This document shows, in pieces, positions 24,082 to 63,485 of a stretch of DNA of 64,000 nt; position 1 is the first letter of the stretch, and the number at the start of each line of letters is the position of its first letter. The notes beneath the pieces were generated by a model. That model was not told the DNA's origin. It saw only the letters and a list, made by a program, of their open reading frames with translations, and ran no database searches. The DNA lies in NCBI GenBank assembly GCA_951406725.2, contig OX597819.1:60078001-60142000 (forward strand), in the 5' to 3' direction. The position numbers and the translations under genes are program-made. The stretch comes from Octopus vulgaris (lineage: Eukaryota).

Positions 24082-27000
24082 CTGAAATATAAATCAGTAA
24101 TACCAATTGCTGTCCCATTTTCAACATTTAACATACACAGTTGTGGCCAACAGTTTGGAACATAAGGTGTGAAAATTAGAATTTTTATATTAAATGCACA
24201 AAGTTATATCTAATTTGCAATATGGTGTAGCAATTTGGTCTAGAACTATATTTTTGATTTTGCCTGTTTTTTCTTCTAGATATTGGATCAGTTATTTGGT
24301 AAGTATATCTCTATGGTGTATATATTTGAATCGAATTGTACTTGGGAAGAACAATTTTGATTTTAAAAAATGTTCCAAACTTTTGGCCATAACTGTATTA
24401 TGAGGGTAAAATATTAAAATTAACCAGGATGAAATACTTTATTAAGGTAAGATACTAAATATCTGTGGAGACCTGCATTTAAGTGAGAGCATAAGCAGCA
24501 TGAGGAAAAAGGCAAGGCAGTAAAGATATATCATCTCTAAAATGGATGAGTAAATTATCTGGATGGCAAAAATACTGTGTTGATAGCGGAAGATGAGCAA
24601 GGGGTATGCCAGTGCAGAAAACATTAAAAGCAAGAGCACTCAGCACAAAACTCCGTCAAGGCAACACCAACATCCTCTCAATGATTAGCTGGAAATGATT
24701 TTTAAAATGAGAATATCTCGCAAACGAGAATACTAAAAAATGAACCTGACTGCTCTCAAAAATTAAGTAAAAAAACCAGGAAAATAATCCAGTATCCTTG
24801 TCTGGTACCTAATCAATCCCAATGGTAGTCATGGAATGTGAAGGTGGATGTGCAGGCTGTGTGTGTGTGTGTGTCATCTGCAGTGGGAATGGGGACAGTT
24901 TTCTCTATGAAGGCCTTTTCTAATCTATCCACTGATAGTGTCTTTACAACCATTATCTGTGCATGAAAGAAAATGGAAAGGACCTGCATACGGTACTGTT
25001 AATGGAGGTTTAACAACATCATTACATACAAAAACGTGAGTTCAAGAAGTAAAGTTTCCTTCAAGGCAGAGCTAGAGGTGCAATTGTCAAGAAGGTAAGA
25101 GGTATTAAACAGGAGCGATGTATTCAAAATTGGTAAAACTAAAAATTGTCGAGGATAAATTAAATTTATTATTGTTACTGAATATGTTAGTGTTATTTAA
25201 TTTCCGAACAGTTTTGCTGCCATTTGTTTATGTATTTTGATTTCTTTATCCATCAGTTTCTACTAAGATAGAGACGTGAGTAAAATTAATAATAGAGAAA
25301 CGAAAATTTGAAACAGAAACGCTGCCATAACTTATATGGAATCTATGAGCGTACTTTCAAGGGAGGTAATCGGAGAAAAACTTGAAAGTCAACATAAGAT
25401 CATAATCATGTAAAGTAAATATAACAAATAATCCAGAATCCTTGTCTGGTATCGGATTGATCCGAAAAGCTAATCAGTTTGTGCCAATCATGAGGCCAAA
25501 CATCCCTGAAAGTTTCATCCGAATCCATCCAGCGGTTCTTGAGATATCTTGTCCAGAGACAAACAAACAAACACAACTGAAAACAATACCTCCGCCTTCG
25601 CTAAGACAGACGTAATAATGATAAAACAGTATTTAAGTTATACTCAATGATCCCCACCCTTCTCTGTGTGTGTGTATATGTATATATATATATATATATA
25701 TATACATATATATACTCTTATATGTATATATATGTATGTATGTATGTATCTATCTATCTATCTATATCATCATCATTTTAACATCCACTTTCTGATACTA
25801 GCATAGGTCACACAGAAATGAAGCAGATTTCCTATGGCTGGATGCTCTTCCTGTTGCCAACCCTCGCTTGTTTCCAACCAAAGTAATATTCCCCTTAACC
25901 AAGTAAATTTTAGTGGAAGATTAGAAATGAGGGATACCATTTATGTGATGGTGACAGTTGTGTGCAATTACCATGTGATGTCTGAACAAGGAGGCACAAA
26001 TACACATCAATGTGTGTGTGTGTTTGTTTGTTTGTGTCTACTTATGGTATTTAACTGTGCTCCTTTGAGCTCTGCTTTTGAATCTCACTCCTATGCCAAT
26101 CTCCTTCCTATTTCAATAAAGTCATACTAGGGGACAAAAAAAAAAGGACTTAGCTAAGCCTTTCATTCTTTTTAATAAATTTCAAAAATTTACAATAACT
26201 AACGAGTATTTAAGATGATGCTTGGAACAGAATGTTGCATAGGATTTTAATGGAAGGTTTTAAATTAAACACAAACTCTTTAAAACAGTCAGTTTTGTAT
26301 CATGAAATCAGAAGTGATCTCAGATTGGTACAAAAGGATTGAAGTCACAAAGCATTTGCTGAAAACTAAACTAGTATCTATCGAGCAATGACACTAACTT
26401 ACAAGACAAAATAATTTGTGTGAAAAAAATTAAGTCTACAAGGCTAAAAGAAGAGTAAAACATAGAAACAATCAGTTCTTACCTATATAAAGCATAATGG
26501 TCATTTTCGGCAAGTTTTAGGAATCTATTTAAAGTATTTATATCCTGTATACACTGTAAAAGAAATAAAAGTCCAACAGTAAAGTTTCAAGCAATGACAT
26601 GTAGACTTTGGGTCTTAAAATCTTCATAAGCTGTTAATTTTCATGTTTGGTTAAAATAAAGAAATTTTGAATTCATTTATTTTTTTAAATTCAGTCAACA
26701 CACATATAAAGTAGAATATGTTATGTGAAAGACTACTGATTAACGATTTTGAGAGCATGCTTCTAATAACTTACATTCCTTAACCTATTAGCATTTAAAC
26801 TGGTCATATCTGGTCAAAATAATCTACCTGTTTTATGTTCAAACTGCTCAGGTCTGGTCTCTCACACCTACCTACAATGTCATTCTGAAAATAAGCATAG
26901 AGCTTAATGCTTAAGGTGTTGCACTTACAATCATCAATCGTGGATTGATTTCAGGACAGAGCAGTGTGTTGCATTTTTGAGTAAAATACTTCATTTCACA

Positions 27001-52200: not shown

Positions 52201-55200
52201 CTAACAATTGATGCGAGTAGTTTATTTCATGCTTCAGAAATTCTGAACATCAAAAATAGTTTCTAAAAGTCATGGGTGCGGTGTTGTTTTTTTGATTTTG
52301 TAAGCATACCCAAGAGTGTTAGACATATGGAATTCAAAAAGGTGCCCAAGGTTGTTGTTGGAATGATGGTGCATAATTTTGTGAGTGTCTTGGAAGTCAT
52401 TTGCCAGGAACATTCAGAGTAATGACAGTGGGTATTTGTCTGGTTGCACATTTCTGAATAGTTTCCAAGATAAGGATTCCAGACTGGTGCTGCAAACTAA
52501 ATGATGCTTAAGACATCTTCAGCCTTCTTGACAATTTTAGAAATATGGTTTGTCCAAGGTGAATTGTAGTTGACCAGGTCATGTTCACTAGCAGATTTCT
52601 TAAGATTGGTATTGTAGAGGGAGTATGTAAACATTGGGTTTTTCCTCCCAAAATGCATTTGTCCACAGTGAGCTTGCGTTATCAGCCAATAATCCATTGC
52701 TGCATTATGTCCAGGTCTGATTGCAGGAAAGATCTATAGCATATAGGGTCTGTTCTTTATATCTCAAGGTACAGTTTGGTGTCATCTGCATATTTCAATA
52801 GTGTAACATTCTTTAAGTTGGCATCTTTGTCATTAATATATGCAACAAACAACAGGGTTCCAAGAACAGATGTCATTTCATAGGATGCTGAATGCTGTCC
52901 TAAAACCAGGAGAACCTCTCTTCGACTGATAATGAAGGGCTTCAGTTAGTTATAAAGATCCTCTTTCAAACCCATTGCAGAGTGTTTTGCTATAAGTCGT
53001 TTATGTGGCACAGAATTGAAGGCTTTAGCAAAGTCAAGATAGATAATATCCACCCATAAGCTGCCATCAGTGATTCAGGTGATGTCTTCAAGAAACTCAA
53101 TGAGATGGCCACAGCAGTTTGGGATAAATCCATATTGTGAGGGTTGAATAAGGCTGTGAGAGTTCAAGAAATTGGAAGTGCAGCAGACAATGTTCAGTAG
53201 AAAAGACTTATGTTCCTTTATATTCTGAGTTCAGTCGCTGCTAGGATCAACTTCACCTTTCCTCTTTATGGCAATAACTAAGATAAAGCATCAGTCATGT
53301 ACTGGGGTCAATATAATAAACTGTTCTTTCATCCAAAACTTCTGTTTTGGCAGACGTTAAACGAGGATGATTATTATTATTATTTATTACTTCTGCCTTA
53401 GCGAAGGTGGAGGTATTGTTTGCAGTCATGTTTGTCCATGGACAAGATATCTCAAGAACTGCTGGATGGATTCGAATGAAACTTTTGGGGATGTTTGGCC
53501 TTGTAACTGGCATGAACTGGTTAGATTTGGGGATCAATCCAGTACCGGATAAAGATTCTGGATTATTTTCCTTGTTTTTTACTTAATTTTTGAGAGCGGT
53601 CAGGTTCATTTTTAGTATTCTTATTTGTAAGAGCAGTCGAGCTAATTTCAGATATTCTCATTTTAAAAATCATCTCTGGCTAATCGTTGAGAGGACGTTG
53701 GTGTTGCCTTGGCAGAGGTTTGCACTCTCTGAGCGCTCTTGTTATTATCATAATAATAATAATAATTATTATTATTATAAAGGCAGCAAGTTTGCATAAT
53801 CATTAGAGCATCAAACAAAATGGATAACTGCATTTTAAATACCTTTAGGTTCTGAATTTAAATTCTGCAGAGGTTGATTTTGCCTTTTATTCTTTCGGAG
53901 TTAATAAAATAAGTACAAGCTGAACACTGGGATTGATATAATTAACTAGCTCACCCCTCCACCACAAAATTTCAGGCTTTGTGTCTATAGTAGAAAAAAT
54001 TATTATTATTATTACTATTAAAAGGAGAGGTGGAAGCACTTCAAATGTTCAAAGACCATGCCAGTCACTTAACATACAACTGGTTTCAAATTTTGTCACA
54101 GGGCCAGCAATTTCAGGGGAGAGGGCTAGCCAACTATATCGACTCCAGTTCTCAGGTGGTACTTATTTTAGTGACTCCCAAAAGGATGAAAGGCAAAGAC
54201 AACCTTGGCAGGATTTGAACTCAGAATGTAAAGACAGACAACAAAATACTTCGCAGCATTTTGTCCGGCATGCTAACAATTCTGCCAGCTTGCTGCCTTA
54301 CACTTAACATATAATTAACAATTCACTGCATTCAATTCATGAAAGTTTTGACTCCAGAACCAATGAAATATATATGTACCAGTATTATACTAGGGTTGAT
54401 TCAATGAACTATACAGCCCTTCACCCCACCACTACTAATGACAATTAGGCTAAACGAAAAGAAATCATTCCAGTGAATTTTTTTTCTTTAAGAGAGACAG
54501 CCATATAACATTGTTCCTACAAATAATGAATCGACCACATAAAAAACATAATTTGAAACGGCAAAAATGTATTCAGGTGGTCGTTTTAACATTAAATTAA
54601 CTTCACAGTGAAATTAAAAGTCTGACGACAAGACTGATGTTGGTTAATAATTATGTATACCCAACTGACAATAGATACTGAGACAATGATATTGTTCTCC
54701 TATATGAATATACAAAATATCTATTTATCTATCGATATTAGTATCTATATCATGCTATATAAAATCAAGTTTTGACAACAAAAACTAAATCTAAATATCA
54801 ACAATCCAAACATACACAAACACACTATATATATATATATATATATACATATTATATATACCAGAGTAAGCACATAAATGCGAAACAAGGTGGAAAAAAT
54901 AGTACTCGAATACCAGAGGTAGAGTAATATGCTTTATTAAAAAGCAACAAAAATATCACAAAAACTGTTACTCAGAGTTTCACGTTCCCGTTAATCAGAC
55001 AATTTGTTTAGAATGGAACAAAAATATACAATTAGTTTGATAGATACATAATTGAAAATGGTTTTGTTTCATTGGTCCTTTCAATAACCGGTTGCATGCA
55101 ATAACAAATTGCGGTATTAAATCATATTATTATAAAAATCAAAGGAAACCTTAAATAAAAAATAGCTTATAAAGAAGGACAGAGCCTGAATACCCAGAGT

Positions 55201-55568
55201 AAATAATTAGTTGTAAAATATTAATCAATTAATAAATTAAAATTTTGAATTAATTTATTAATATTTTACAGCTAATTATTTTACTCTGTCCTTCTTTATA
55301 AGCTAGTTTTGATTTAAGGTTTTCTTTGATTTTTATTAACAATATGATTTTATACCGCAATTTGTTATTGCATGCAACTGGTCATTGTAAAGACCATTAG
55401 TTGAAAGGACCAATGAAATAAAACCATTTTCAAATGTGTATCTATCAAACTAGTTGTACTTCTGCATATAACTTTATCTTGCTCCATTCTAAACAAAACT
55501 GTCCGACGAACAGGAACATGAAACTCTGAGTAACAGTTTTTGTAATATTTTTGCTGCTTTTTAATAAA

Positions 55569-55608
<40 letters not shown>

Positions 55609-58600
55609 TATGTGTGTCTGTGTGTGTTTATAGATGTAAACAATACAAGGTTTCACACTAAATTAGACAAGCAAATTACTTTCTATTCTGTCATAATAAG
55701 CCATTTCTCTTAGTTAGCAATACAAACAAAAATCAAATAAATACATTCTGATATATATAAAACAAAAACTACAAAAGTCACACTAATATGGAGTGTAAGA
55801 AACTGATTAAGTTACAAGATGCAAAAAAAAAACACAAACAAAACAAACAAAAGAAATAACCTGAAGACAAAACATTTAAATTAATCACATTTATGTTGGT
55901 TTAGTTTCAAAGATCATAAAATATGAGTGACTATATTACCTCGGCATCAAGGTATTGTAGAACACCTCCACTATAATCATCAAGATCAACACGAAAGGTA
56001 GGCAAGTGTTAAGGAGAATCAAAAGATGTAGATGGTTGCATAGAAATCTGTAAAAATGGGTGATTAATTTATCAATTGCAGCGTCGAAGGTGTTTATAAG
56101 ACATTTAAGGAACACAAAAACCGTTAGATTCACTTCAACATTTAAATTTAATTTGCCAAAATATTTTCATTGCTTTGAGACCGTGAGCATGGAATTTTGT
56201 CAGTGAACAGGTCGCGGTCTCAAAGCAACGAAAATATTTTGACAAACTAAATTCAAATGTTGAAGTGAATCTAACGGTTTTTGTATGTTTCTTAAATGGC
56301 TTATAAACACCTTCCATGCTGCAATTGTTTTTGTTCCAGCACACAATCTCAGATCAGGTCACTTGCTATGCAAGTACATCTCTGTAATTTATCAATTACT
56401 CTCTGATTTTATTTATTTATTTATTGCTTTTGCAGACAAAAGAAAAAAAGTAACTGTTTAACCCTTTAGCAGTAAATTCGGTCATATCTAGCTGAAATAT
56501 TCTACCTGGTTTATGTTCAAATTAGCCAGATTTGGCCTCTCACACCTACCTGCAATATCATTCTTAAAATATACAATCACATTATTGAAATCTTGAAGTT
56601 ATGAAATAATACATGATTAATTCAAAACAATGTGAATAAAAAAGCATTGCATTTGACAGTAATCTGAATGCTAAAGGGTTAAATACCAATATTTATGGAT
56701 CTTCAAACAGTTTGTTAAGTCAAGACAACTGAGATGAATAATAAAATGTGCCAAACGTGGCTGATGCCAGTACCCACTGACTAGCCCCCGTGCCAGTGGC
56801 ACGTAAAAAGTACTATCCGAATGTGATCGATGCCAGGCCCACCTGACTGGCTCATGTGCCGGTGGCACGTAAAAAGCTCCTGCTACACTCTTGGAGTGGT
56901 TGGCATTAGGAAGGGCATCCAGCTGTAGAAACATTGCCAGACCAGATTGGAGTCTCGTGCAGCTGCTGGCTCTCCAGACCTCAGTGAAACCGTCCAACTC
57001 ATGCCAGCATGGAAAACAGACATTAAATGATGATGATGATGTGCAACACCTGATTCTATAATTCTTTCATTATATAAGATGATGATTAAGTTAAATTCTA
57101 TAAATAAAAAAAGGCCTTCAGTTTATCAGGAACAGATTCCTGTGTGTTCCAATACTTTTAACGGTGTTGTAATCATCATCATTGTTCTGTGACACTTTCC
57201 AGTCTGGCATAGATTGAACAGATTTCCATAGTCTAAATCCATTCTTATTCAGATGATTGTCCTCTAAAACAAATCAAAGGATCATATCTTACTCCTATAC
57301 TTCACTTTTGCTATGGTTTCTACAATTGGATAGCCTTCTAACACCAACCACTTTACAGATTGTACTAGGTGTATTTTAATGTGGCACCAGCACTAGAGAG
57401 ATTGCTATGTCCTCAGCTAGTCCACCCTCTATGATGTCTTTGTTTATCAATTACTTACAGAGTGTACTGGATGCATATTATTGTGGTAACAGCACTAGAG
57501 AAGCTGTCATATCAACAGCCAGATAAAAAGAGACTACTCTCAATGTTGTCTTTGTTTGTCAACTACTTTACTAAGTGTATTGGGTACATTTTATTCTGGC
57601 ACCAGTACAAGAAAAGTTGTCTTGTCCCCAATAAGAACAGTCTTCTGAATTTTGTTTCCATTCCTTCGAAGCAAACATGACCAAGAAAGCGAATAATAAA
57701 TATTAACAGATTGTAAATGGTATCTGATATTGCGTATGTACATAAACATGGCTGTATAATTAAGAAGTTTGTTTTGCAAATATGTGGTTCCAGGTTCATT
57801 CCCTCTACGTGATACTGTAAGCAAGTGTCTTCTACCATAGAGATGATGCTTGCTTACAACTATTGCATAATGTCAAGATAAGGAGACACAAACAAACCAA
57901 CACACATGTACACATTATGTAGAACAGAGCCATTCTGCATCCAGTCCTTTAACAAGAAGCTAAATCACTAAGTTCAAAAAGGACCATTAGTCTCTGTAAT
58001 TAAAAGAGAAAACAAAATGGAAAATAACTCCAATAATTCGTGCTTAACTCAATGCAAAAACAAAAAGAGAATAAAAATAATAGAAAGAGATGAACACAAG
58101 TTAATAGTAAAGGATATTGTTCAAGTGAATCTTCTTGACTAAACAGGAAACACACTAGATAATCTCCAGTAGATGTAGTCCGAGATTTTGGTGACGGGGG
58201 TAGCACCGGTGTACTTTTGCAGGCAGGATTTGAATCAGATTTCCATAGGCAATAATAGCAGACTGATGGAAAATCTGAATTTTCACTGAAAAAGAATTTC
58301 TTTCTTTTTTATAAAATTGAAACAAAAATGAATCAGGTATGAAAATAAATAATAAATAAAATCACAGAATGGTTTATACTACCAGTTAAAAATAGCAGGC
58401 AAGTCAAAAGAAGACAATGTTATTTTTAAGGTTGTCCTTGATAAAGAAAGAGAGAGAGCAGTCATGGATGGAATGTTACATATCAATGCTGAGGTGGAGC
58501 TAAATAATACAACTGTTAGCTACTCTACTGTGAAATGGATCAATATTCAGCTGGACAGGTAGAGTCCTGTCCTTTGTCTAAGAGTGGAGACCTGATCCTT

Positions 58601-61200
58601 AATTTAAAGTATGAATTAGTCAACCAAATAGAATTCTGAAATTTGTACAATGACTGACTGAATTTAAGTTTCAATCATAATCTGAGAGAAATATTATTGT
58701 GGAGCTGAGCAAAGTGCTAGAGTTAATATGTGTACATCTATGTGATAAAGAAAGCTGCTTATTAATTAGCTTGGAGTATACAACTTTTACTAAAGGAAAG
58801 TAATTATTAAAGTCTATATTATCTAGAAAATTCTTACAAATTCCAATTGTAATATATATTTTTTTTATCAAAATTGGTTTTCAATCATCTTTTATTATTG
58901 AAGATTTCAACTAAGCAATTCAAACATAAAAGTAATTTCTATTCACTACAGCATAGTCATCTTACATTGTAAGGTAAGATTTCTAATATTTCTCTTTATA
59001 CTAGTGGAAATAAAGAGGCTGCCCTCCATAATACCTGATTTCTTCATAAATTGAGTGCTTAGTATGCTTGAGTGCTTACTGTGTTTGAGTGCTTAGTATT
59101 ATTCTGTAGTGAGACATGTTAGCAGTTTTGTTGTTGCAGCATAGCACAGTCATCCTTTGCCCATTTCATCCATTTACTACTGTCTGCAGAAGGATACATG
59201 TGGCAACATGGTCTTTTCAAGTGTCAGAGAGAGCTGCTGTTGAGACATCAACATGCTGATATGACGTTGTCAAACTGTTCAGTGATTATAAGCACACGTA
59301 ACGACATGCTGACATTTACTTTGTACACCACACATCTTACAAATCATTTAATCTAGGCAACACACTAACCACCAAGGACCATGCCATAGTAAGTTTGTCA
59401 AATGCCTCCAGCCATCTCTACACCTGAAATCACTTATTCATTTTACACGCATTATTATTTGTTCATACATTCACATGCATACTGTAATATCAATTACTCC
59501 TGCAAGGTGGCGAGCTGGCAGAAACATTAGCACGCCGGGCAAAATGCTTAACAGTATTTTGTCTGTCTTTATGTTGTGAGTTCAAATTCCGCCGAGGTCG
59601 ACTTTGCCTTTCATCTTTTCAGGGTCGATAAATTAAGTACCAGTTGCGTACTGGGGCCGATCTAATTGACTGGCCCCCTCCCCCAAAATTTCAGGCCTCA
59701 TGCCTAGAGTAGAAAAGAATACCAATTACTGCCACTCATACAAGAGGGTGTCCTCTCCTTAATAAAGTATGTTTATTTCTTTATACATTTGCTTCCTGAT
59801 CTGATTCTCTTTCATCACTCATTCAATGAACCTTGCTGCCAGTCACTACAATTTAACCTCATTGAATTAACTCGAAACATTACAAACTGGTGAAATTGCA
59901 TTTCATTGTAAAATACCTATATTTGAAACCTTCCTACATGCACACTATAAAATATGCTTTCTAAAGTGGTAATTATAACTTTTAATATCCCTTGTTACAA
60001 TTCTAAATTTATCTACTGACTGAGTAAATACTATTAGACAAATAAAAGATACAGAAGAGAATTAGTGGTAACATATCAGAAAAATGATACAAGTTGGGAA
60101 TCAGAAATGTAAATATTATTTAGTGACCAGCAGAAAACGACCAGGAAGGCAGTCTTTTTGCTAGTTATAATAATGAAGAATGTATTGACATTTACAAGTA
60201 TCAGAAAGATTTGAAGAAAGCAGGTATGGTTGCATGGTTAAGAAGATCGCTTGGCAACTGCATAGTACCAGGTTTCATTTCACCGTAGGATTCTTTTGGT
60301 AAGAGATGGTATTATGCCTCATCAAAAGAAATAATTATAACTAAAGTTTGGATAAAGGTAAAGAAAAGAAAATTTATGGAGCTTATCCATAATCCAAAGA
60401 GAGAAAATTCCATAAAAAACATTTCAAAATCTAAATCTTCATGGATTTAAAAAAGAGGATTTCAATATTCACCTAGAAGTTAAGCTAACAACATTTCCGC
60501 TACCAATGCAGTCAACACCTTTCGATAAACGCTGTACCAAACACTTCCGCAACTCAATTTCAATCCCTGCATTTAAATCTGTAGCTACAATAGAAAGACT
60601 GTAAAGAAAAAAAAAGATATATACATCTGTATACATATATAAGAAGAGGAGTGACAGTGACTTCGAAGTTTTGACCAGCTAGATTTTGTCAGACTGTCCT
60701 ATGAAGACTAGCAGACTGAAATTTCAAAGTCACTGCCACTCCTCTTCTTGGAAAAGTACAATAATATGTATTTCACAAAAGTATTGAGTACTTCTCCCAT
60801 TTAATGTTAAATAGTTTTTATTATAACTCAACATAAACACACACATATATAGTAATAATAATTAAATTCAAAAGAAAATTTAATGTAAATTTAATTAAAA
60901 TTTTGTTTGGGAATTTAATGACAAGACTAAAAAGGAACACATGTAAGATTAATACTCAAAATCATAGTAAATACAATGACAAAAGCCTAAAGTTTGCAAG
61001 GCACCAGAAGACCTCAAGAGACATGTTTACATCCATAGAACATCATTATCACTTTGCTAAATCTTCATTTGTCATTCATGACAAGAGGATCCATCATATA
61101 TATATACGTATCCTACCTTAGTTCTTCAATGTCATCATCACCCTTCTCTTGGTCCTCTACTGCAGCTTCACTTTTCTCTTGACACTTCCGTGGTTTGGAC
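23931..61200 (-). CDS. C17orf75: C17orf75/NJMU-R1 orthologue (subunit of the WDR11-FAM91A1-C17orf75 complex), 10 coding exons in window, 5' end missing
   Basis: Exons 61117-61200, 60473-60598, 58118-58285, 55940-55997, 37926-38045, 34152-34216, 29926-30140, 28108-28208, 26483-26553 and 23931-24081 join in one frame with matching phases to a TGA. Motifs ELRKCLVQRLSKG..GSGNV, VCYYCL, YLVCFL, FRVDLD, RFCKDW, IQDINTLNRFLKLAENDHYALYRAYMFLK match recalled human NJMU-R1 (ELRSFIAKRLSRG..GLGNV, GCYYCL, YVVCFL, FRLELD, RFCEDW, IQDTNNLKRFIRQAEMNHYALFKCYMFLK). Confidence 0.93.
24630..25618 (-). mobile_element. Longer copy of the same HINE-like element
   Basis: 24630-24822 and 25425-25618 are homologous to the two halves of 53384-53743, with about 600 bp extra internal sequence. 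Confidence 0.6.
26483..26553 (-). CDS. C17orf75: C17orf75 exon (71 nt, phase 0-2): CIQDINTLNRFLKLAENDHYALY
   Basis: Acceptor tttcttttacag, donor AG|gtaaga. Highly conserved peptide. Confidence 0.94.
28108..28208 (-). CDS. C17orf75: C17orf75 exon (101 nt, phase 1-0): ESCRFCKDWAEKLINSDRHNALCLKVTIDSYKLQ
   Basis: Acceptor caattttcag, donor CAG|gtagga. Contains the RFCxDW motif. Confidence 0.92.
29926..30140 (-). CDS. C17orf75: C17orf75 exon (215 nt, phase 2-1): NFIRSCTLDGISNL...KSFKFEPD
   Basis: Acceptor ttttctttgttttccag, donor G|gtaagt. Lies in ORF 29912..30151 and its phase fits both neighbours. Confidence 0.9.
31002..32396 (+). mobile_element. Helitron (copy 1), interrupted by a second Helitron
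   Basis: A|TC start, 3' hairpin GCCGTCATTATTGATGGC then CTAG|T. Homologous to 34529-35117. Confidence 0.7.
31346..32340 (+). mobile_element. Nested Helitron
   Basis: Inserted between A and T of CCTTA|TTTATATA (empty site visible in copy 2), no TSD, TC start, hairpin CCAGGCAAGGCTGG then CTAA. Confidence 0.65.
32676..33690 (-). repeat. Head-to-tail array of about 5 SINE family B copies
   Basis: Same unit with (AAT)n spacers. Confidence 0.8.
33700..34110 (-). mobile_element. 3' end of a LINE (Tx1/L1-like) with AATAAA and (ATT)n tail
   Basis: Minus-strand remnant RKLGVEREVL, then a T-rich UTR and GGCCAATAAAAGAATGAATTATTATT. Confidence 0.45.
34152..34216 (-). CDS. C17orf75: C17orf75 exon (65 nt, phase 0-2): ALLGIQLEINGGSEQLRKDIQ
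   Basis: Acceptor tgttttgtag, donor AA|gtaagc. Aligns to recalled ALSYTPVEV...KRDINR. Confidence 0.88.
34529..35117 (+). mobile_element. Helitron (copy 2, uninterrupted)
   Basis: A|TCTCCTAATATAATAATGAGC start, hairpin GCCATCATTTTTGATGGC then CTAG|T. Confidence 0.7.
35959..36752 (-). mobile_element. SINE-like element with GTGGCAC(G/A)TAAAA (Deu/Nin-like) modules, internal tandem repeats and (GAT)n tail
   Basis: Same tail at 1-140, 2250-2640, 27499-27975, 29280-29585 and 56748-57041. Confidence 0.75.
36753..37260. mobile_element. Penelope-like fold-back element with inverted pLTR-like arms
   Basis: About 36755-36907 and about 37050-37200 are reverse complements. An internal small inverted pair and a (AATGTAAAT)n tail are present. 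Confidence 0.75.
37102..37147 (+). ncRNA. Minimal hammerhead ribozyme motif of PLE type, intact core
   Basis: GACAC-CTGATGA-AGGCAG...CAGCC-GAAAC-GTT-GTGTT, with palindromic AACGTT replacing stem III. The mirror copy at 36811-36858 (minus) reads CTGAAGA...GAAGT. Confidence 0.65.
37926..38045 (-). CDS. C17orf75: C17orf75 exon (120 nt, phase 0-0): LSQIDTCVKDYLEAWPVIAMDYLCRCIDVLHDSIHHLIYC
   Basis: Acceptor tatcttcttccag, donor TGT|gtaagt. The 40 aa align to recalled ...IKSYLSSW...IQRVVLL...LLHA. Confidence 0.9.
38545..40415 (-). repeat. Head-to-tail array of about 8 SINE family B copies separated by (AAT)n
   Basis: Repeated unit of about 210 bp containing GGATGAAAGGCAAAGTCGACC..GGAATTTGAACTCAGAA on the plus strand. 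Confidence 0.85.
41454..41777. mobile_element. hAT (Charlie-like) MITE
   Basis: TIRs CAGAGGTTCCCAACC and GGTTGGGAACCCTTG, 8-bp TSD CTTTAAAG/CATTAAAG. Confidence 0.8.
47790..47976 (+). mobile_element. Penelope-like 3' terminal fragment in (TA)n
   Basis: TGAAAGAGC GTAG GCTC GAAATGT hammerhead-like hairpin plus GAAA. Flanked by (TA)n. Confidence 0.45.
48166..48390 (+). mobile_element. L2/Crack-like LINE 3' remnant (a related piece is at about 47050-47420)
   Basis: Translates as SLLAKMTILWNFLPVHIFP..LHMLK, resembling the LWNSLP C-terminal LINE motif. Confidence 0.45.
50783..51290 (+). mobile_element. Retroposon 3' end with (AAT)n tail (copies at 44331-44800 and 45683-45960)
   Basis: Three highly similar copies sharing ACAGATTTGCTTGTCAG..GTCCCTT.GTGG.TGAC.ATATGTGCATCTCTGA. 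Confidence 0.65.
52010..53185 (-). mobile_element. 5'-truncated, decayed CR1-clade LINE (reverse transcriptase remnant)
   Basis: Minus-strand peptides QYGFIP, DIIYLDFAKAFNSVPHKRL, VLGTLLFVAYIND and YADDTKL, with frameshifts and stops. Confidence 0.85.
53384..53743 (+). mobile_element. Helentron-associated (HINE/DINE-like) element
   Basis: 5' TTATTACTTCTGCC.. with subterminal inverse ..CCTTGGCAGAGG and 3' hairpin GCACTCTCTGAGCGC-TCTTGTT. Confidence 0.6.
54961..55005 (-). ncRNA. Minimal type I hammerhead ribozyme motif (G8U core variant)
   Basis: Minus strand reads AAATTGT-CTGATTA-ACG GGAA CGT-GAA-ACTC T GAGT-A-ACAGTTTT, with a perfect stem II and GNRA loop. Confidence 0.7.
55495..55540 (+). 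ncRNA. Minimal type I hammerhead ribozyme motif (decayed)
   Basis: AAAACTGT-CCGACGA-ACAGGAACAT-GAA-ACTC T GAGT-A-ACAGTTTT: 8-bp stem I, core (U4C), stem II with two mismatches, palindromic stem III, GUA triplet. Confidence 0.7.
55940..55997 (-). CDS. C17orf75: C17orf75 exon (58 nt, phase 2-0): HFRVDLDDYSGGVLQYLDAE
   Basis: AC acceptor after the U12 branch site, donor GAG|gtaata. Matches recalled FRLELDKY motif. Confidence 0.92.
56078..56384 (+). mobile_element. Fold-back Penelope-like insertion with 13-bp TSD inside the U12 intron
   Basis: Arms about 56074-56183 and 56214-56326 are inverted. Direct repeat TAATTTATCAATT at 56065-56077 and 56385-56397. Confidence 0.75.
56462..56678. mobile_element. 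piggyBac-like TTAA MITE (family also at 5387-5607, about 12146-12682 split by a SINE, 26780-26895, 32460-32676)
   Basis: TTAA-CCCTTTAGCA ... TGCTAAAGGG-TTAA. Confidence 0.75.
58118..58285 (-). CDS. C17orf75: C17orf75 exon (168 nt, phase 2-2): SENSDFPSVCYYCLWK...DYLVCFLFSQEDSLE, ending at a U12 AT donor
   Basis: Acceptor ttctttttcag. Exon ends GAA CA|ATATCCTTT. Conserved CYYCL and YxVCFL motifs. Confidence 0.92.
59504..59720 (+). mobile_element. Young solo SINE family B copy (others at 4531-4750, 7910-8075, 18325-18740, 23395-23615, 44790-45400, 46030-46405, 50555-50770, 53778-54300, 62442-62845)
   Basis: AAGGTGGCGAGCTGGCAGAA head, B box GAGTTCAAATTCC, GCCTTTCATC..GGGTCGATAAA core, CAATTACT duplicated on both sides. 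Confidence 0.85.
60473..60598 (-). CDS. C17orf75: C17orf75 exon (126 nt, phase 2-2): SLSIVATDLNAGIEIELRKCLVQRLSKGVDCIGSGNVVSLTS
   Basis: Acceptor tttttctttacag, donor AG|gtgaat, strong similarity to recalled NJMU-R1. Confidence 0.93.
60641..60825 (+). mobile_element. Fold-back element of the GACAGTGACTTCGAAGTTT family (hammerhead 3' half)
   Basis: Inverted arms 60641-60672 and 60718-60749. Related copies at 684-765 and 13291-13515. Confidence 0.6.
61117..61200 (-). CDS. C17orf75: C17orf75 exon (84 nt, phase 2-2): SKPRKCQEKSEAAVEDQEKGDDDIEEL
   Basis: Acceptor ttccattctag, donor AG|gtagga. Only one frame is open, and its acidic peptide corresponds to the region before the conserved SLS motif. 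Confidence 0.8.
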
Positions 61201-63485
61201 CTAGAATGGAAAGTAACTTTTATGATGTCAAGGGTAATTCACAATGGTAAGAAAGATAGGGTGCAAGTGAAGCAGAAAACGTAATGATATTTGTTATTGG
61301 CAATAAAAACTGGATGCAATGCAGATGGTTTTATGGAGGTAGCCATCATTATCTTCATCGTTGTTTTAATGTCCACTCTGCCATACTTGCACAAGTCAGA
61401 TGGAGTTCATTGAGGCAGATTTCCTAGAGTCACTTACAAAGCATCAGTCAACCAGGAGCTACAAAAAAATATGCCCCATCTTCAATCTTGTAACATTTGT
61501 TGCTAAAATATTTTTTATATGAGTAAACATTTTCCACCCCAACACAGGTACTACAACATATTTAATAAGTGCACTATCGAATTCTCATGCCTCACTACTC
61601 CAAACTTTGTCCAGATAATGACTGTTTTCAGCCTTAGAAAGATTCAGCCTCACACTACTAATACCAATCCAAATAACCTCAAGTATAATTGAAATCACCT
61701 GATAAATTGATCTTTAAATTCTAGATGTTTAGATCAGATATCATTTACCAAAGCAAAGTAATCCTATATAGGCCTCATCAGTAATTCATTTAAGTCCTGT
61801 CTCTACCAAAATATTAATTCCTTCTTTAATCCTGCCTAATATAAAGTCACTTCATTGTCAAGATGCAGAGATTAATCAGAAAACAATAACTAAAACCATT
61901 TCACTGATCCTGTGATGTGTGCATCATTGAAGCTTCCCACATTCTGTTCTCCAAGGAGAAACATTAAATATACACTCTGAAAGAATCACATTATGGTCAT
62001 ACAAAAACAATCATTAAGTAATACCTTATTCCTTACAGGTGAATCTCCAGTACCATCTGGAGTGATTAATGCTAAATATTTTGTCCCATTTGTACTTTTA
62101 CCCAACCTCTGCTTTTACGTTAACCTCCTACACACAATCATGCATGCACTTTACCATATCAAGAAAACACTGGCTCACACAAATGCATAACAGCATCTAT
62201 GTACACAGGCCTCTTCTAACAAACAACCCCAACTGTTAATATGCACACATGCATGTGCACACAACAGGAGATGCACCCATCCACATCTGTACATGACCAT
62301 GTCTTCATGCATGTATGCACACTCTCAATTGGCACCTAATGCACACCTAACCATAAGAGATACTCTATGCTCTGATTTACCAGTCATATACTCTATTGCA
62401 CCCAACACATTTCCCTGTATTGTACTGTAATCTAGTATATTAAGGCGGTGAGCAGGCAGAATCGTTAGCATACTGGTATTTTGTCAGCCACTACGTTCTG
62501 AGTTCAAATTGTGCCGAGGTTGACTTTGCCTCTTCATCCTTTTAGGGTTGATAAATTAAATACCAGTTGAGTACTGGGGGGGGGGGGGTCAATGTAATTG
62601 ACTATTCCCCTCACCCAAATTTCAGGCCTTGTCCCTATAGTAGAAAGAATTATTATTATTATTATTATTATTATAATTGTTAGAACACCTGGTGAAATGT
62701 TTAGCAATATTTTGTCTGTCTTCATGTTCTGAGTTCAAATTCTGCCAAGGTAAACTTTGCCTTTCATCCTTTTGGGGTCGATTAACTATGCACTGGAGTC
62801 AATCCCCTCCTCCAAGCTGCCCTTGTGGCAAAAATTTGAAATCATTATAATTTACTGTACTATGGACATGTAATTAGAATGTTCCAGGATGAATTGCAAG
62901 GTGGATTCTTCAAGTCAAGCCAAGCAGCAGGAGAGATATAGGGGTAGACCAGGAATGAGGTGGGTGGATAACACCCATAGTTTTAGTTGGTCATGCTTGG
63001 AAATTCAGCAGGAAAGTTTAATGGCAGATACTTGTGATAGGATCCTATGGAAGAAGTGCCTGGGGATTCTACCCCAACAAACTTCCCAAATGTATGTGTT
63101 TATTTGGCTACTTATTTGCATAGGTGCATCTGTATGCATACTCTTGTGTAGATATATTTGTATACATATGTCTGTGTATATATAAATAGATGTGTGTATT
63201 TTTCCCTTGTTAACAATTAACACGGAAAAAATTTATAAATAGTTACCAGGGTATCAAAAAATCACTCAAGTAAAAAGGTTGTAACTCCTTGTTTTTAAAG
63301 ATAGAAACTTCGGGTTTACGTGAAATATTTTTAATAATATATATAAATAAATAAATGGAGTTAAACGCAGCTGTTATTCAAATTCTTTTACTTCCGACAC
63401 ATTTTAAAGATATCATTGGTATTATTATTATTATACATAAATATATATACACATATGTCTGTATATATATATATATATTTATGAA

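What the first reader, a model, noticed from the sequence alone, without database searches (positions are those of the whole stretch)
54861..55570. Giant intronic palindrome carrying two back-to-back hammerhead ribozyme motifs
Seen: about 640 bp fold-back in (TA)n. Each arm has a complete type I hammerhead layout, consensus AAAACUGU-CUGA(C/U)GA-ACG GGAA CGU-GAA-ACUC U GAGU-A-ACAGUUUU. Stem III is palindromic with a 1-nt loop. Established: Penelope-like elements carry minimal hammerheads whose palindromic stem III favours dimeric folding, and often insert with inverted pLTRs. Inference: this is a non-autonomous PLE-derived family. The two arms carry different lesions (minus arm G8U; plus arm U4C and CpG-decayed stem II), so an active ancestral ribozyme can be reconstructed.
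Basis: partly seen in the sequence, partly recalled or inferred. Interest (0 to 1): 0.75.

Follow-up and report, generated by a model that had tools for sequence, protein, structure and literature searches.

The report
Decayed Penelope-like insertion, variant hammerheads
This intronic palindrome is an old head-to-head pair of fragments of a Penelope-like jumping gene, and both of its self-cutting-RNA motifs are damaged and likely dead; its relatives show that the family carried a non-standard ribozyme core and that such pairs likely form when the two ends of a DNA break are each primed at a different site on the element's RNA.

Summary
The fold-back is real: 638 bp, 276 of 304 aligned bases match, one type I hammerhead layout per arm, (TA)n flanks, in an intron of an Njmu-R1-like gene. 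It is not a non-autonomous family. Relatives run upstream into an RT + GIY-YIG ORF of the Hydra clade of Penelope-like elements. The true lesions are G8U and stem II. C4 also dominates an intermediate subfamily (95 of 100), a second, intact Hydra family (97 of 100) and an unrelated minimal hammerhead, while the youngest sister has canonical CUGAUGA. In that young sister, 35 of 38 head-to-head pairs join one tail-less and one tailed arm, and none joins two arms ending at the same site. No 5' end of 100 lies at the cleavage site; 60 lie 10-60 nt upstream of it. Best reading: both DNA ends are primed on uncleaved RNA, one at each start site. The locus is ordinary; the family-level pattern is moderately new and testable.

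The parts
54826..54859 (.). left (TA)n target microsatellite
   Evidence: Hydra-clade elements insert into (TA)n (Craig 2021)
54861..54931 (-). 71-nt 'tail' between 3' end site 1 and site 2, present on this arm only
   Evidence: family copies end at +37 or +109 from the predicted cleavage site
54861..55242 (-). left arm: 5'-truncated copy (starts about -304), ends at site 2
   Evidence: L001
54961..55006 (-). hammerhead of left arm, core CUGAUUA: G8U at 54993; U4 and U7 are likely CpG decay of C4 and C7; stems II and III intact; predicted cleavage after 54969
55242..55249 (.). head-to-head junction in AT-rich, locally palindromic 3' UTR sequence
55249..55569 (+). right arm: 5'-truncated copy (starts about -295), ends at site 1, no tail
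55495..55540 (+). hammerhead of right arm, family-type core CCGACGA; stem II broken by two CpG-type G>A changes; predicted cleavage after 55532
55570..55603 (.). right (TA)n target microsatellite
55940..55997 (-). host exon (Njmu-R1-like gene); its GT donor at 55939 opens the intron that holds the palindrome

Best explanation
The palindrome is a decayed head-to-head pair of 5'-truncated copies of the 3' end of a Hydra-clade Penelope-like retrotransposon in an intronic (TA)n, likely made in one event in which the element's enzyme cut both DNA strands and primed reverse transcription from each end on uncleaved element RNA, one end at start site 1 and the other at site 2. SHOWN: the arm is a high-copy repeat that continues upstream into an RT-thumb-CxCX5C-GIY-YIG ORF; copies have two fixed 3' ends 71-75 nt apart; inverted pairs join one end of each kind; the family's hammerhead core was CCGACGA; the motifs here carry G8U or a broken stem II. 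INFERRED: the two cDNAs were joined at their 3' ends through short AT-rich or palindromic microhomology, giving the fold-back; the ribozyme does not cut the template before copying, so a U4C core is tolerated and spread in several families; both motifs at this locus are inactive and serve no host function. Odds: identity about 0.95, inactivity at this locus about 0.9, double-priming mechanism about 0.65.
For: Family: 2976 first-look candidates, 40 scored; other copies 82-89% identical; 532 exact hits, control 0. Link to the ORF; L070/L097 holds RT, EN and the hammerhead in one copy. Intact sister family: 727-aa frame with DKT, CxCX5C and no Cys pair between the GIY- and YIG-type motifs, matching the Hydra definition and the Hydra alignments of Craig 2021. 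Core state in the first 100 listed hits, counted by eye: window family C4 83; intermediate subfamily C4 95; youngest subfamily U4 100; second Hydra family C4 97, with tandem 717-aa frames 99.9% identical; unrelated minimal hammerhead C4 about 72. Pair rule: 35 of 38 young pairs are site 1 + site 2 and the other 3 have one intermediate end; P about 2e-8 against independent choice. In the old family 19 of 30 pattern-picked loci are pairs, and 18 of these join a short and a tailed arm (read by eye). Pairs exist in which the tail-less arm is the longer by more than 30 nt (young L243, L256, L201; old L006, L033, L036, L053, L055, L059), so each arm holds sequence that the other lacks. 0 of 100 young 5' ends lie within 3 nt of the cleavage site. 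In vitro, a PLE extends both DNA strands, starts at two sites that define the tail, and does not need hammerhead cleavage (PMC11167929).
Against: No bench data. In 30 of 38 young pairs the arms end within 30 nt of each other, mostly just 5' of the hammerhead; a fold-back model also explains this, and the window pair (-304/-295) fits either model. The young sample is 105 arms from the first 82 Mb of one contig. It was partly picked by a pattern that needs the whole hammerhead, which depletes ends at the cleavage site, and one old partner arm (L053) does start at +1. Pfam gave no hit for the 727-aa protein and only a sub-threshold GIY-YIG hit for the 717-aa one, so the clade rests on motif comparison, not on a tree with reference PLEs. 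No intact ORF of the old subfamily was seen (longest frame 279 aa in 30 loci). Stems do not covary within the lineage. Whether C4 hammerheads cleave is disputed in the papers read.
Confidence: 0.85

Rival explanations
1. Same element, but the inversion arises by fold-back: one cDNA primed at site 2 snaps back at a short palindrome (or self-primes on an antisense template), copies itself, and the endonuclease resolves the intermediate at site 1.
For: 30 of 38 young pairs are near-symmetric, with a hot spot at a CTAG palindrome at -43 (12 of 100 ends). Self-priming was proposed for Adineta elements (PMC3846280). The tail was ascribed to EN resolution in Craig 2021.
Against: Pairs whose tail-less arm is longer by up to 640 nt cannot be a copy of the tailed arm, nor the reverse. 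Both 3' ends correspond to RT start sites in vitro in another PLE.
Confidence: 0.25
2. A non-autonomous, retrozyme- or MITE-like family whose palindromic unit moves as a whole and whose ancestor had a canonical CUGA hammerhead.
For: High copy number; many copies are short inverted pairs.
Against: The centre of the palindrome differs from copy to copy; the sequence continues into a coding ORF; the core is CCGA in 83 of 100; no tandem 150-400-nt unit was seen in the loci fetched.
Confidence: 0.04
3. The hairpin has been kept by the host as an intronic double-stranded element that guides A-to-I editing or splicing of the Njmu-R1-like gene.
For: It lies about 370 nt from a 5' splice site and is predicted to fold at -369 kcal/mol on the host strand. 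One low-depth contig from a presumed RNA run has 5 T>C changes (A>G on the host strand) in the left arm; the family has T at 4 of the 5 positions.
Against: One contig, depth 3.3, 1 of 4 runs laid, with no DNA control. Editing of any long duplex is expected without function. The arms have drifted 9% apart with indels.
Confidence: 0.07

Closest known systems
Hydra clade of C-terminal EN+ Penelope-like elements (Craig et al. 2021; bioRxiv 10.1101/2021.04.23.441226 passages; PMC8557442 supplement Files S1, S2 and alignment passages)
   Same: Single ORF, DKT, CxCX5C linker, no CCHH, (TA)n target, inverted 5'-truncated copy, tail on one end, type I hammerhead with a 4-bp palindromic stem III and 1-nt loop. 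Coral Hydra-2_Amil has the same stem I core (CUGU/ACAG) and stem III (ACUC-N-GAGU-A).
   Different: All Hydra rows of File S2 have CUGA, whereas this subfamily has CCGA. Stem II is 3 bp + GNRA against 4 bp in the coral element. The tail is 71-75 nt against the 30-40 nt stated for PLEs. Hydra-1_Obim has another hammerhead, so this is a different family.
Minimal PLE hammerheads (Cervera and de la Pena 2014, PMC4209133; parts 1-2 of 4 read)
   Same: Type I, palindromic helix III, predicted to work as dimers, dispersed as truncated copies, opposite-strand pairs 100-700 bp apart.
   Different: Their min-HHRs have a longer helix II with G10.1-C11.1; here it is A10.1-U11.1 (A.G or A.A in younger subfamilies). 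The core variant named in the parts read is U3-A8, not U4C.
PAc Poseidon element of Anolis (Frangieh et al. 2024, PMC11167929; passages and part 2 of the main text read)
   Same: Two RT start sites bound the tail; AT-rich targets; both DNA strands are extended; uncleaved RNA is the main template.
   Different: The parts read give no model of head-to-head pairs or of the one-site-per-arm rule. In PAc the ORF starts inside the hammerhead; in the sister family here the ATG lies about 180 nt downstream of the cut site.
U4C (CCGA) hammerheads of viroids and viroid-like RNAs (PMC3088659, PMC9608096, bioRxiv 10.64898/2026.09.16.752053; passages)
   Same: The same core change occurs naturally.
   Different: Those are type III motifs in replicating RNA circles, in single variants or one strand. 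Here the change is the majority state of several genomic retroelement families with hundreds to thousands of exact-pattern copies each.

Membership tests
Hydra-clade PLE | single ORF with RT and C-terminal GIY-YIG endonuclease | tested here: met
   Broken frames in old copies; intact 727-aa frame in the sister family, 73% identical over the RT piece. Pfam silent.
Hydra-clade PLE | DKG modified to DKT | tested here: met
   NSDKTRN in the 727-aa sister frame; not read in an old-subfamily copy.
Hydra-clade PLE | CxCX5C linker and absence of the CCHH cysteines in the endonuclease | tested here: met
   CNCKEETCC in L077 (old) and CNCKNESSC in L134; no Cys between the VY and YTG motifs.
Hydra-clade PLE | insertion into (TA)n | tested here: met
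Hydra-clade PLE | placement in the Hydra clade on an RT tree with reference PLEs | not tested
   Only motif comparison by eye with supplement alignments.
PLE insertion architecture | 5'-truncated inverted copy, tail on one end only | tested here: met
canonical hammerhead ribozyme | core CUGANGA / GAAA / UH | tested here: not met
   Family CCGACGA; window minus arm CUGAUUA, plus arm CCGACGA. It is met in the youngest sister subfamily.
canonical hammerhead ribozyme | three helices around the core | tested here: met
   All 15 pairs form in family copy L035; the plus arm lacks 2 of 3 stem II pairs.
canonical hammerhead ribozyme | covariation of stems | tested here: inconclusive
   None within the lineage, where subfamily differences fall mostly on unpaired positions; stem II differs with pairing kept in coral Hydra-2_Amil.
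canonical hammerhead ribozyme | self-cleavage | not testable with these tools
   Indirect only: 0 of 100 copy ends at the cut site.
non-LTR retrozyme | non-coding tandem repeat unit with a hammerhead in each unit | tested here: not met
   The unit is a 3.36-kb coding element; here the arms are inverted, not tandem.
Neptune-clade PLE | CX2-5CxxC linker plus CCHH endonuclease | tested here: not met

The most novel reading that the evidence does not exclude
Hydra-clade Penelope elements insert by obligatory double priming: one enzyme complex primes both ends of a break, always one at each RT start site, on uncleaved RNA whose 5' end or stall point lies just before the hammerhead. The ribozyme is then not a template-trimming device, and several unrelated families of this genome have independently fixed a down-tuned U4C core that still cleaves as a dimer or with protein help. 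One lineage returned to U4 while losing the 10.1-11.1 pair.
Probability: 0.4. Interest if true: 0.65.

Novelty: new variant of a known kind. Interest (0 to 1): 0.45.

Why it matters
How Penelope-like elements form inverted insertions, and what their hammerheads do, are stated open questions. This genome holds thousands of young copies and intact ORFs of two Hydra families, one with a canonical core and one with U4C. They give a natural pair for testing whether cleavage matters, and a strict rule (one arm per start site) that any mechanism must explain. CUGA-based descriptors would miss the C4 families, so hammerhead counts in such genomes may be too low. The locus itself is a fossil.

Tried and rejected
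Rfam scan of 53500-57000: no hammerhead hit among 9 matches at E<=10. Pfam on three old ORF pieces and on the 727-aa protein, and PDB sequence search: nothing significant. My first clade guess, Neptune, was dropped after the motif check. A tree of 13 endonuclease segments splits old from young copies by 0.31 changes per site but has no root, so it does not give the direction of U4/C4. The ladder C4 > C4 > U4 rests on haplotypes and copy divergence only. The third C4 family could not be tied to an ORF: no tblastn hit of the two Hydra proteins in 42 loci, and the Neptune-type endonuclease in L312 belongs to a neighbouring insertion. No RNA holder is listed on record; four presumed RNA runs were laid as contigs only, so ends and strands cannot be read. 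A second laying with a DNA control gave no result, so the editing hint is unreplicated. Lunse et al. 2017 on dimeric PLE hammerhead variants is not held; it may already list U4C. Earlier-findings look-ups by place (near), sequence and words returned nothing.

Full report
OBSERVATION. The two arms align with 276 matches in 304 columns (90.8%) plus indels; the paired part is 54932-55569. Each arm has a type I hammerhead layout: minus strand 54961-55006 (core CUGAUUA, stem II ACG-GGAA-CGU) and plus strand 55495-55540 (core CCGACGA, stem II ACA-GGAA-CAU). Both have GAA-ACUC-U-GAGU-A. Rfam does not detect them. Contigs of presumed RNA runs show a spliced minus-strand transcript with exons at 61117-61202, 60473-60598, 58118-58285 and 55940-55997. 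Pfam Njmu-R1 matches, each below the cut-off, fall on two of these exons and on window 26470-26565. The palindrome therefore lies in an intron; the next exon below 55940 was not mapped.

FAMILY. The right arm has 2976 first-look candidates in the 2.8-Gb genome; 40 were scored, and other copies are 82-89% identical. Copies end at one of two fixed 3' ends, +37 or +109 from the predicted cut, and are usually followed by (TA)n. Upstream they continue, variably truncated, through about 1.1-1.3 kb of 3' UTR into an endonuclease and RT frame; L070/L097 has RT, endonuclease and hammerhead in one copy. An RT piece finds a young sister family, 73% identical, with dozens of 727-aa open frames in 3.36-kb tandems. 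Its protein has DKT, a CxCX5C linker and no CCHH. These are the marks of the Hydra clade in Craig et al. 2021 (passages; supplement tables and alignments). The family is thus autonomous in origin; no intact frame of the old subfamily was seen in 30 loci. The host is probably an octopus (inference from genome size and likeness to Hydra-1_Obim).

CORE. With the 5' core box left free, the old pattern has 532 exact hits. Of the first 100 listed, position 4 is C in 83, T in 13, A in 3 and G in 1; G5>A, the mirror CpG change, occurs 12 times (counted by eye). U4 copies, including the window's minus arm, are therefore decay products of C4. An intermediate subfamily (GCAA loop, G or U at 11.1) has 1441 hits with C4 in 95 of 100. 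The youngest (A at 11.1) has 3539 hits with U4 in 100 of 100 and CUGAUGA in 97. A second Hydra family, about 45% identical in protein, has 3455 hits with C4 in 97 of 100 and intact 717-aa frames 99.9% identical between tandem units. An unrelated minimal hammerhead has 7868 hits with C4 in about 72 and U4 in about 26 of 100; its parent was not found. These patterns require intact flanks and so favour less decayed copies. All Hydra rows in File S2 of Craig et al. have CUGA, so C4 is probably derived, more than once; the unrooted tree does not prove the direction. Within the lineage the subfamily differences fall on positions 4, 7, loop II, 11.1, loop III and outer stem I; there is no stem covariation. 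The coral Hydra-2_Amil motif keeps stems I and III and has a different, paired stem II. On activity the papers disagree. U4C 'considerably decreases activity in vitro' but allows viroid infectivity (PMC3088659, passages and section 8). It did not affect cleavage in a PLMVd variant (PMC9608096, passage). Single mutants of the CUGA turn had low activity in a scan (PMC9901934, passages). CCGA cores also occur in viroid-like circles. My searches for U4C or CCGA with hammerhead found no report for PLEs, but Lunse et al. 2017 was not available and the supplements of Cervera 2014 were not read.

ARCHITECTURE. I mapped 105 distinct arms of the young family from the first 82 Mb of contig C1. The input was 60 search loci plus 40 regions that I chose to cover most of the 70 further listed tail hits; four loci gave no hit above the 85% filter. 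56 arms end at site 1, 46 at site 2 and 3 in between. Of 38 head-to-head pairs, 35 are site 1 + site 2, none is site 1 + site 1 or site 2 + site 2, and 3 have one intermediate end (P about 2e-8). Of 100 5' ends not cut by a locus edge, 0 are within 3 nt of the cleavage site, 60 lie at -60 to -10, and 12 lie at a CTAG palindrome at -43. Part of this sample needed a whole hammerhead to be found, which biases against ends at the cut. The old family behaves alike: 19 of 30 pattern-picked loci are pairs, 18 join a short and a tailed arm, most junctions lie near -40, and one partner arm starts at +1. The window is such a pair, with its junction at -304/-295.

MECHANISM. Established: PLE insertions often have an inverted truncated copy and a tail on one end. 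In vitro a PLE cuts and extends both DNA strands, starts at two sites that bound the tail, and uses unprocessed RNA (PMC11167929). Inferred here: each end of the break is primed at a different site, and the two cDNAs are joined at their 3' ends by microhomology. The argument against simple fold-back is that in several pairs the tail-less arm is the longer one (up to 640 nt in L243), so neither arm can be a copy of the other. Near-symmetric pairs would follow if both RTs stop at one RNA end or stall point, but fold-back explains them too and stays the main rival. The searches showed no paper with this double-priming model or these counts.

THIS LOCUS. The minus arm has lost G8; the plus arm has lost two of three stem II pairs. 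The motifs are on opposite strands, and on the host strand the sense motif is predicted to be paired along its length in the hairpin. Both are likely dead. One contig of depth 3.3, in 1 of 4 runs, shows five T>C changes in the left arm, four of them not explained by the family's majority base. This is compatible with A-to-I editing of the intronic duplex but is unreplicated.

EARLIER NOTES. One search lists an unchecked note of a CCGAUGA core in a 359-nt repeat of this genome, and one of copies that begin at the cut site in another family. I did not test either.

VERDICT. The locus is an ordinary fossil of a known clade. The family-wide U4C cores and the one-site-per-arm rule are a modest, testable addition. 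Interest 0.45.

Noticed in passing
window 55998-58117 (-): U12-type AT-AC intron in the Njmu-R1-like host gene: ATATCCTT 5' site, TCCTTAAC branch point, AC end. The U12 motifs are recalled.
   Followed up: partly
window 55002-55162: One low-depth contig of run X5 has five T>C changes (A>G on the host sense strand) inside the left arm; possible hyper-editing of the hairpin.
   Followed up: partly
L134-L136, L143, L144 (for example G000:C4:132437500-132447400): Very young Hydra-clade family with intact 727-aa frames in tandem and inverted arrays; hammerhead with canonical core but A.A at 10.1/11.1 and only 2 bp in stem II.
   Followed up: yes
L294-L298 (G000:C1:57208000-57223500): Second young Hydra-clade family, 2.58-kb tandem period, 717-aa frame, CCGAAGA core, long stem II and an extra U before GAA.
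   Followed up: partly
L182-L193, L302-L331: Abundant minimal hammerhead repeat with mostly CCGACGA core, unpaired A before stem II, and apparently two 3' ends; parent element not found.
   Followed up: partly
young-family junctions, for example L158, L169, L239: Recurrent perfect fold-back at a CTAG 43 nt upstream of the cut site; may mark the pLTR transcription start.
   Followed up: partly
window 56073-56327: Another nested inverted repeat (arms 88-93% complementary) inside the U12 intron, close to its 3' end; it gives weak miRNA-like Rfam hits.
   Followed up: no
window 53736-54299: Older inverted pair of a common short repeat, 72-79% complementary, in the same intron as the finding.
   Followed up: no
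L139:7488-7535 (+): A canonical CUGAUGA minimal hammerhead of yet another repeat family.
   Followed up: no
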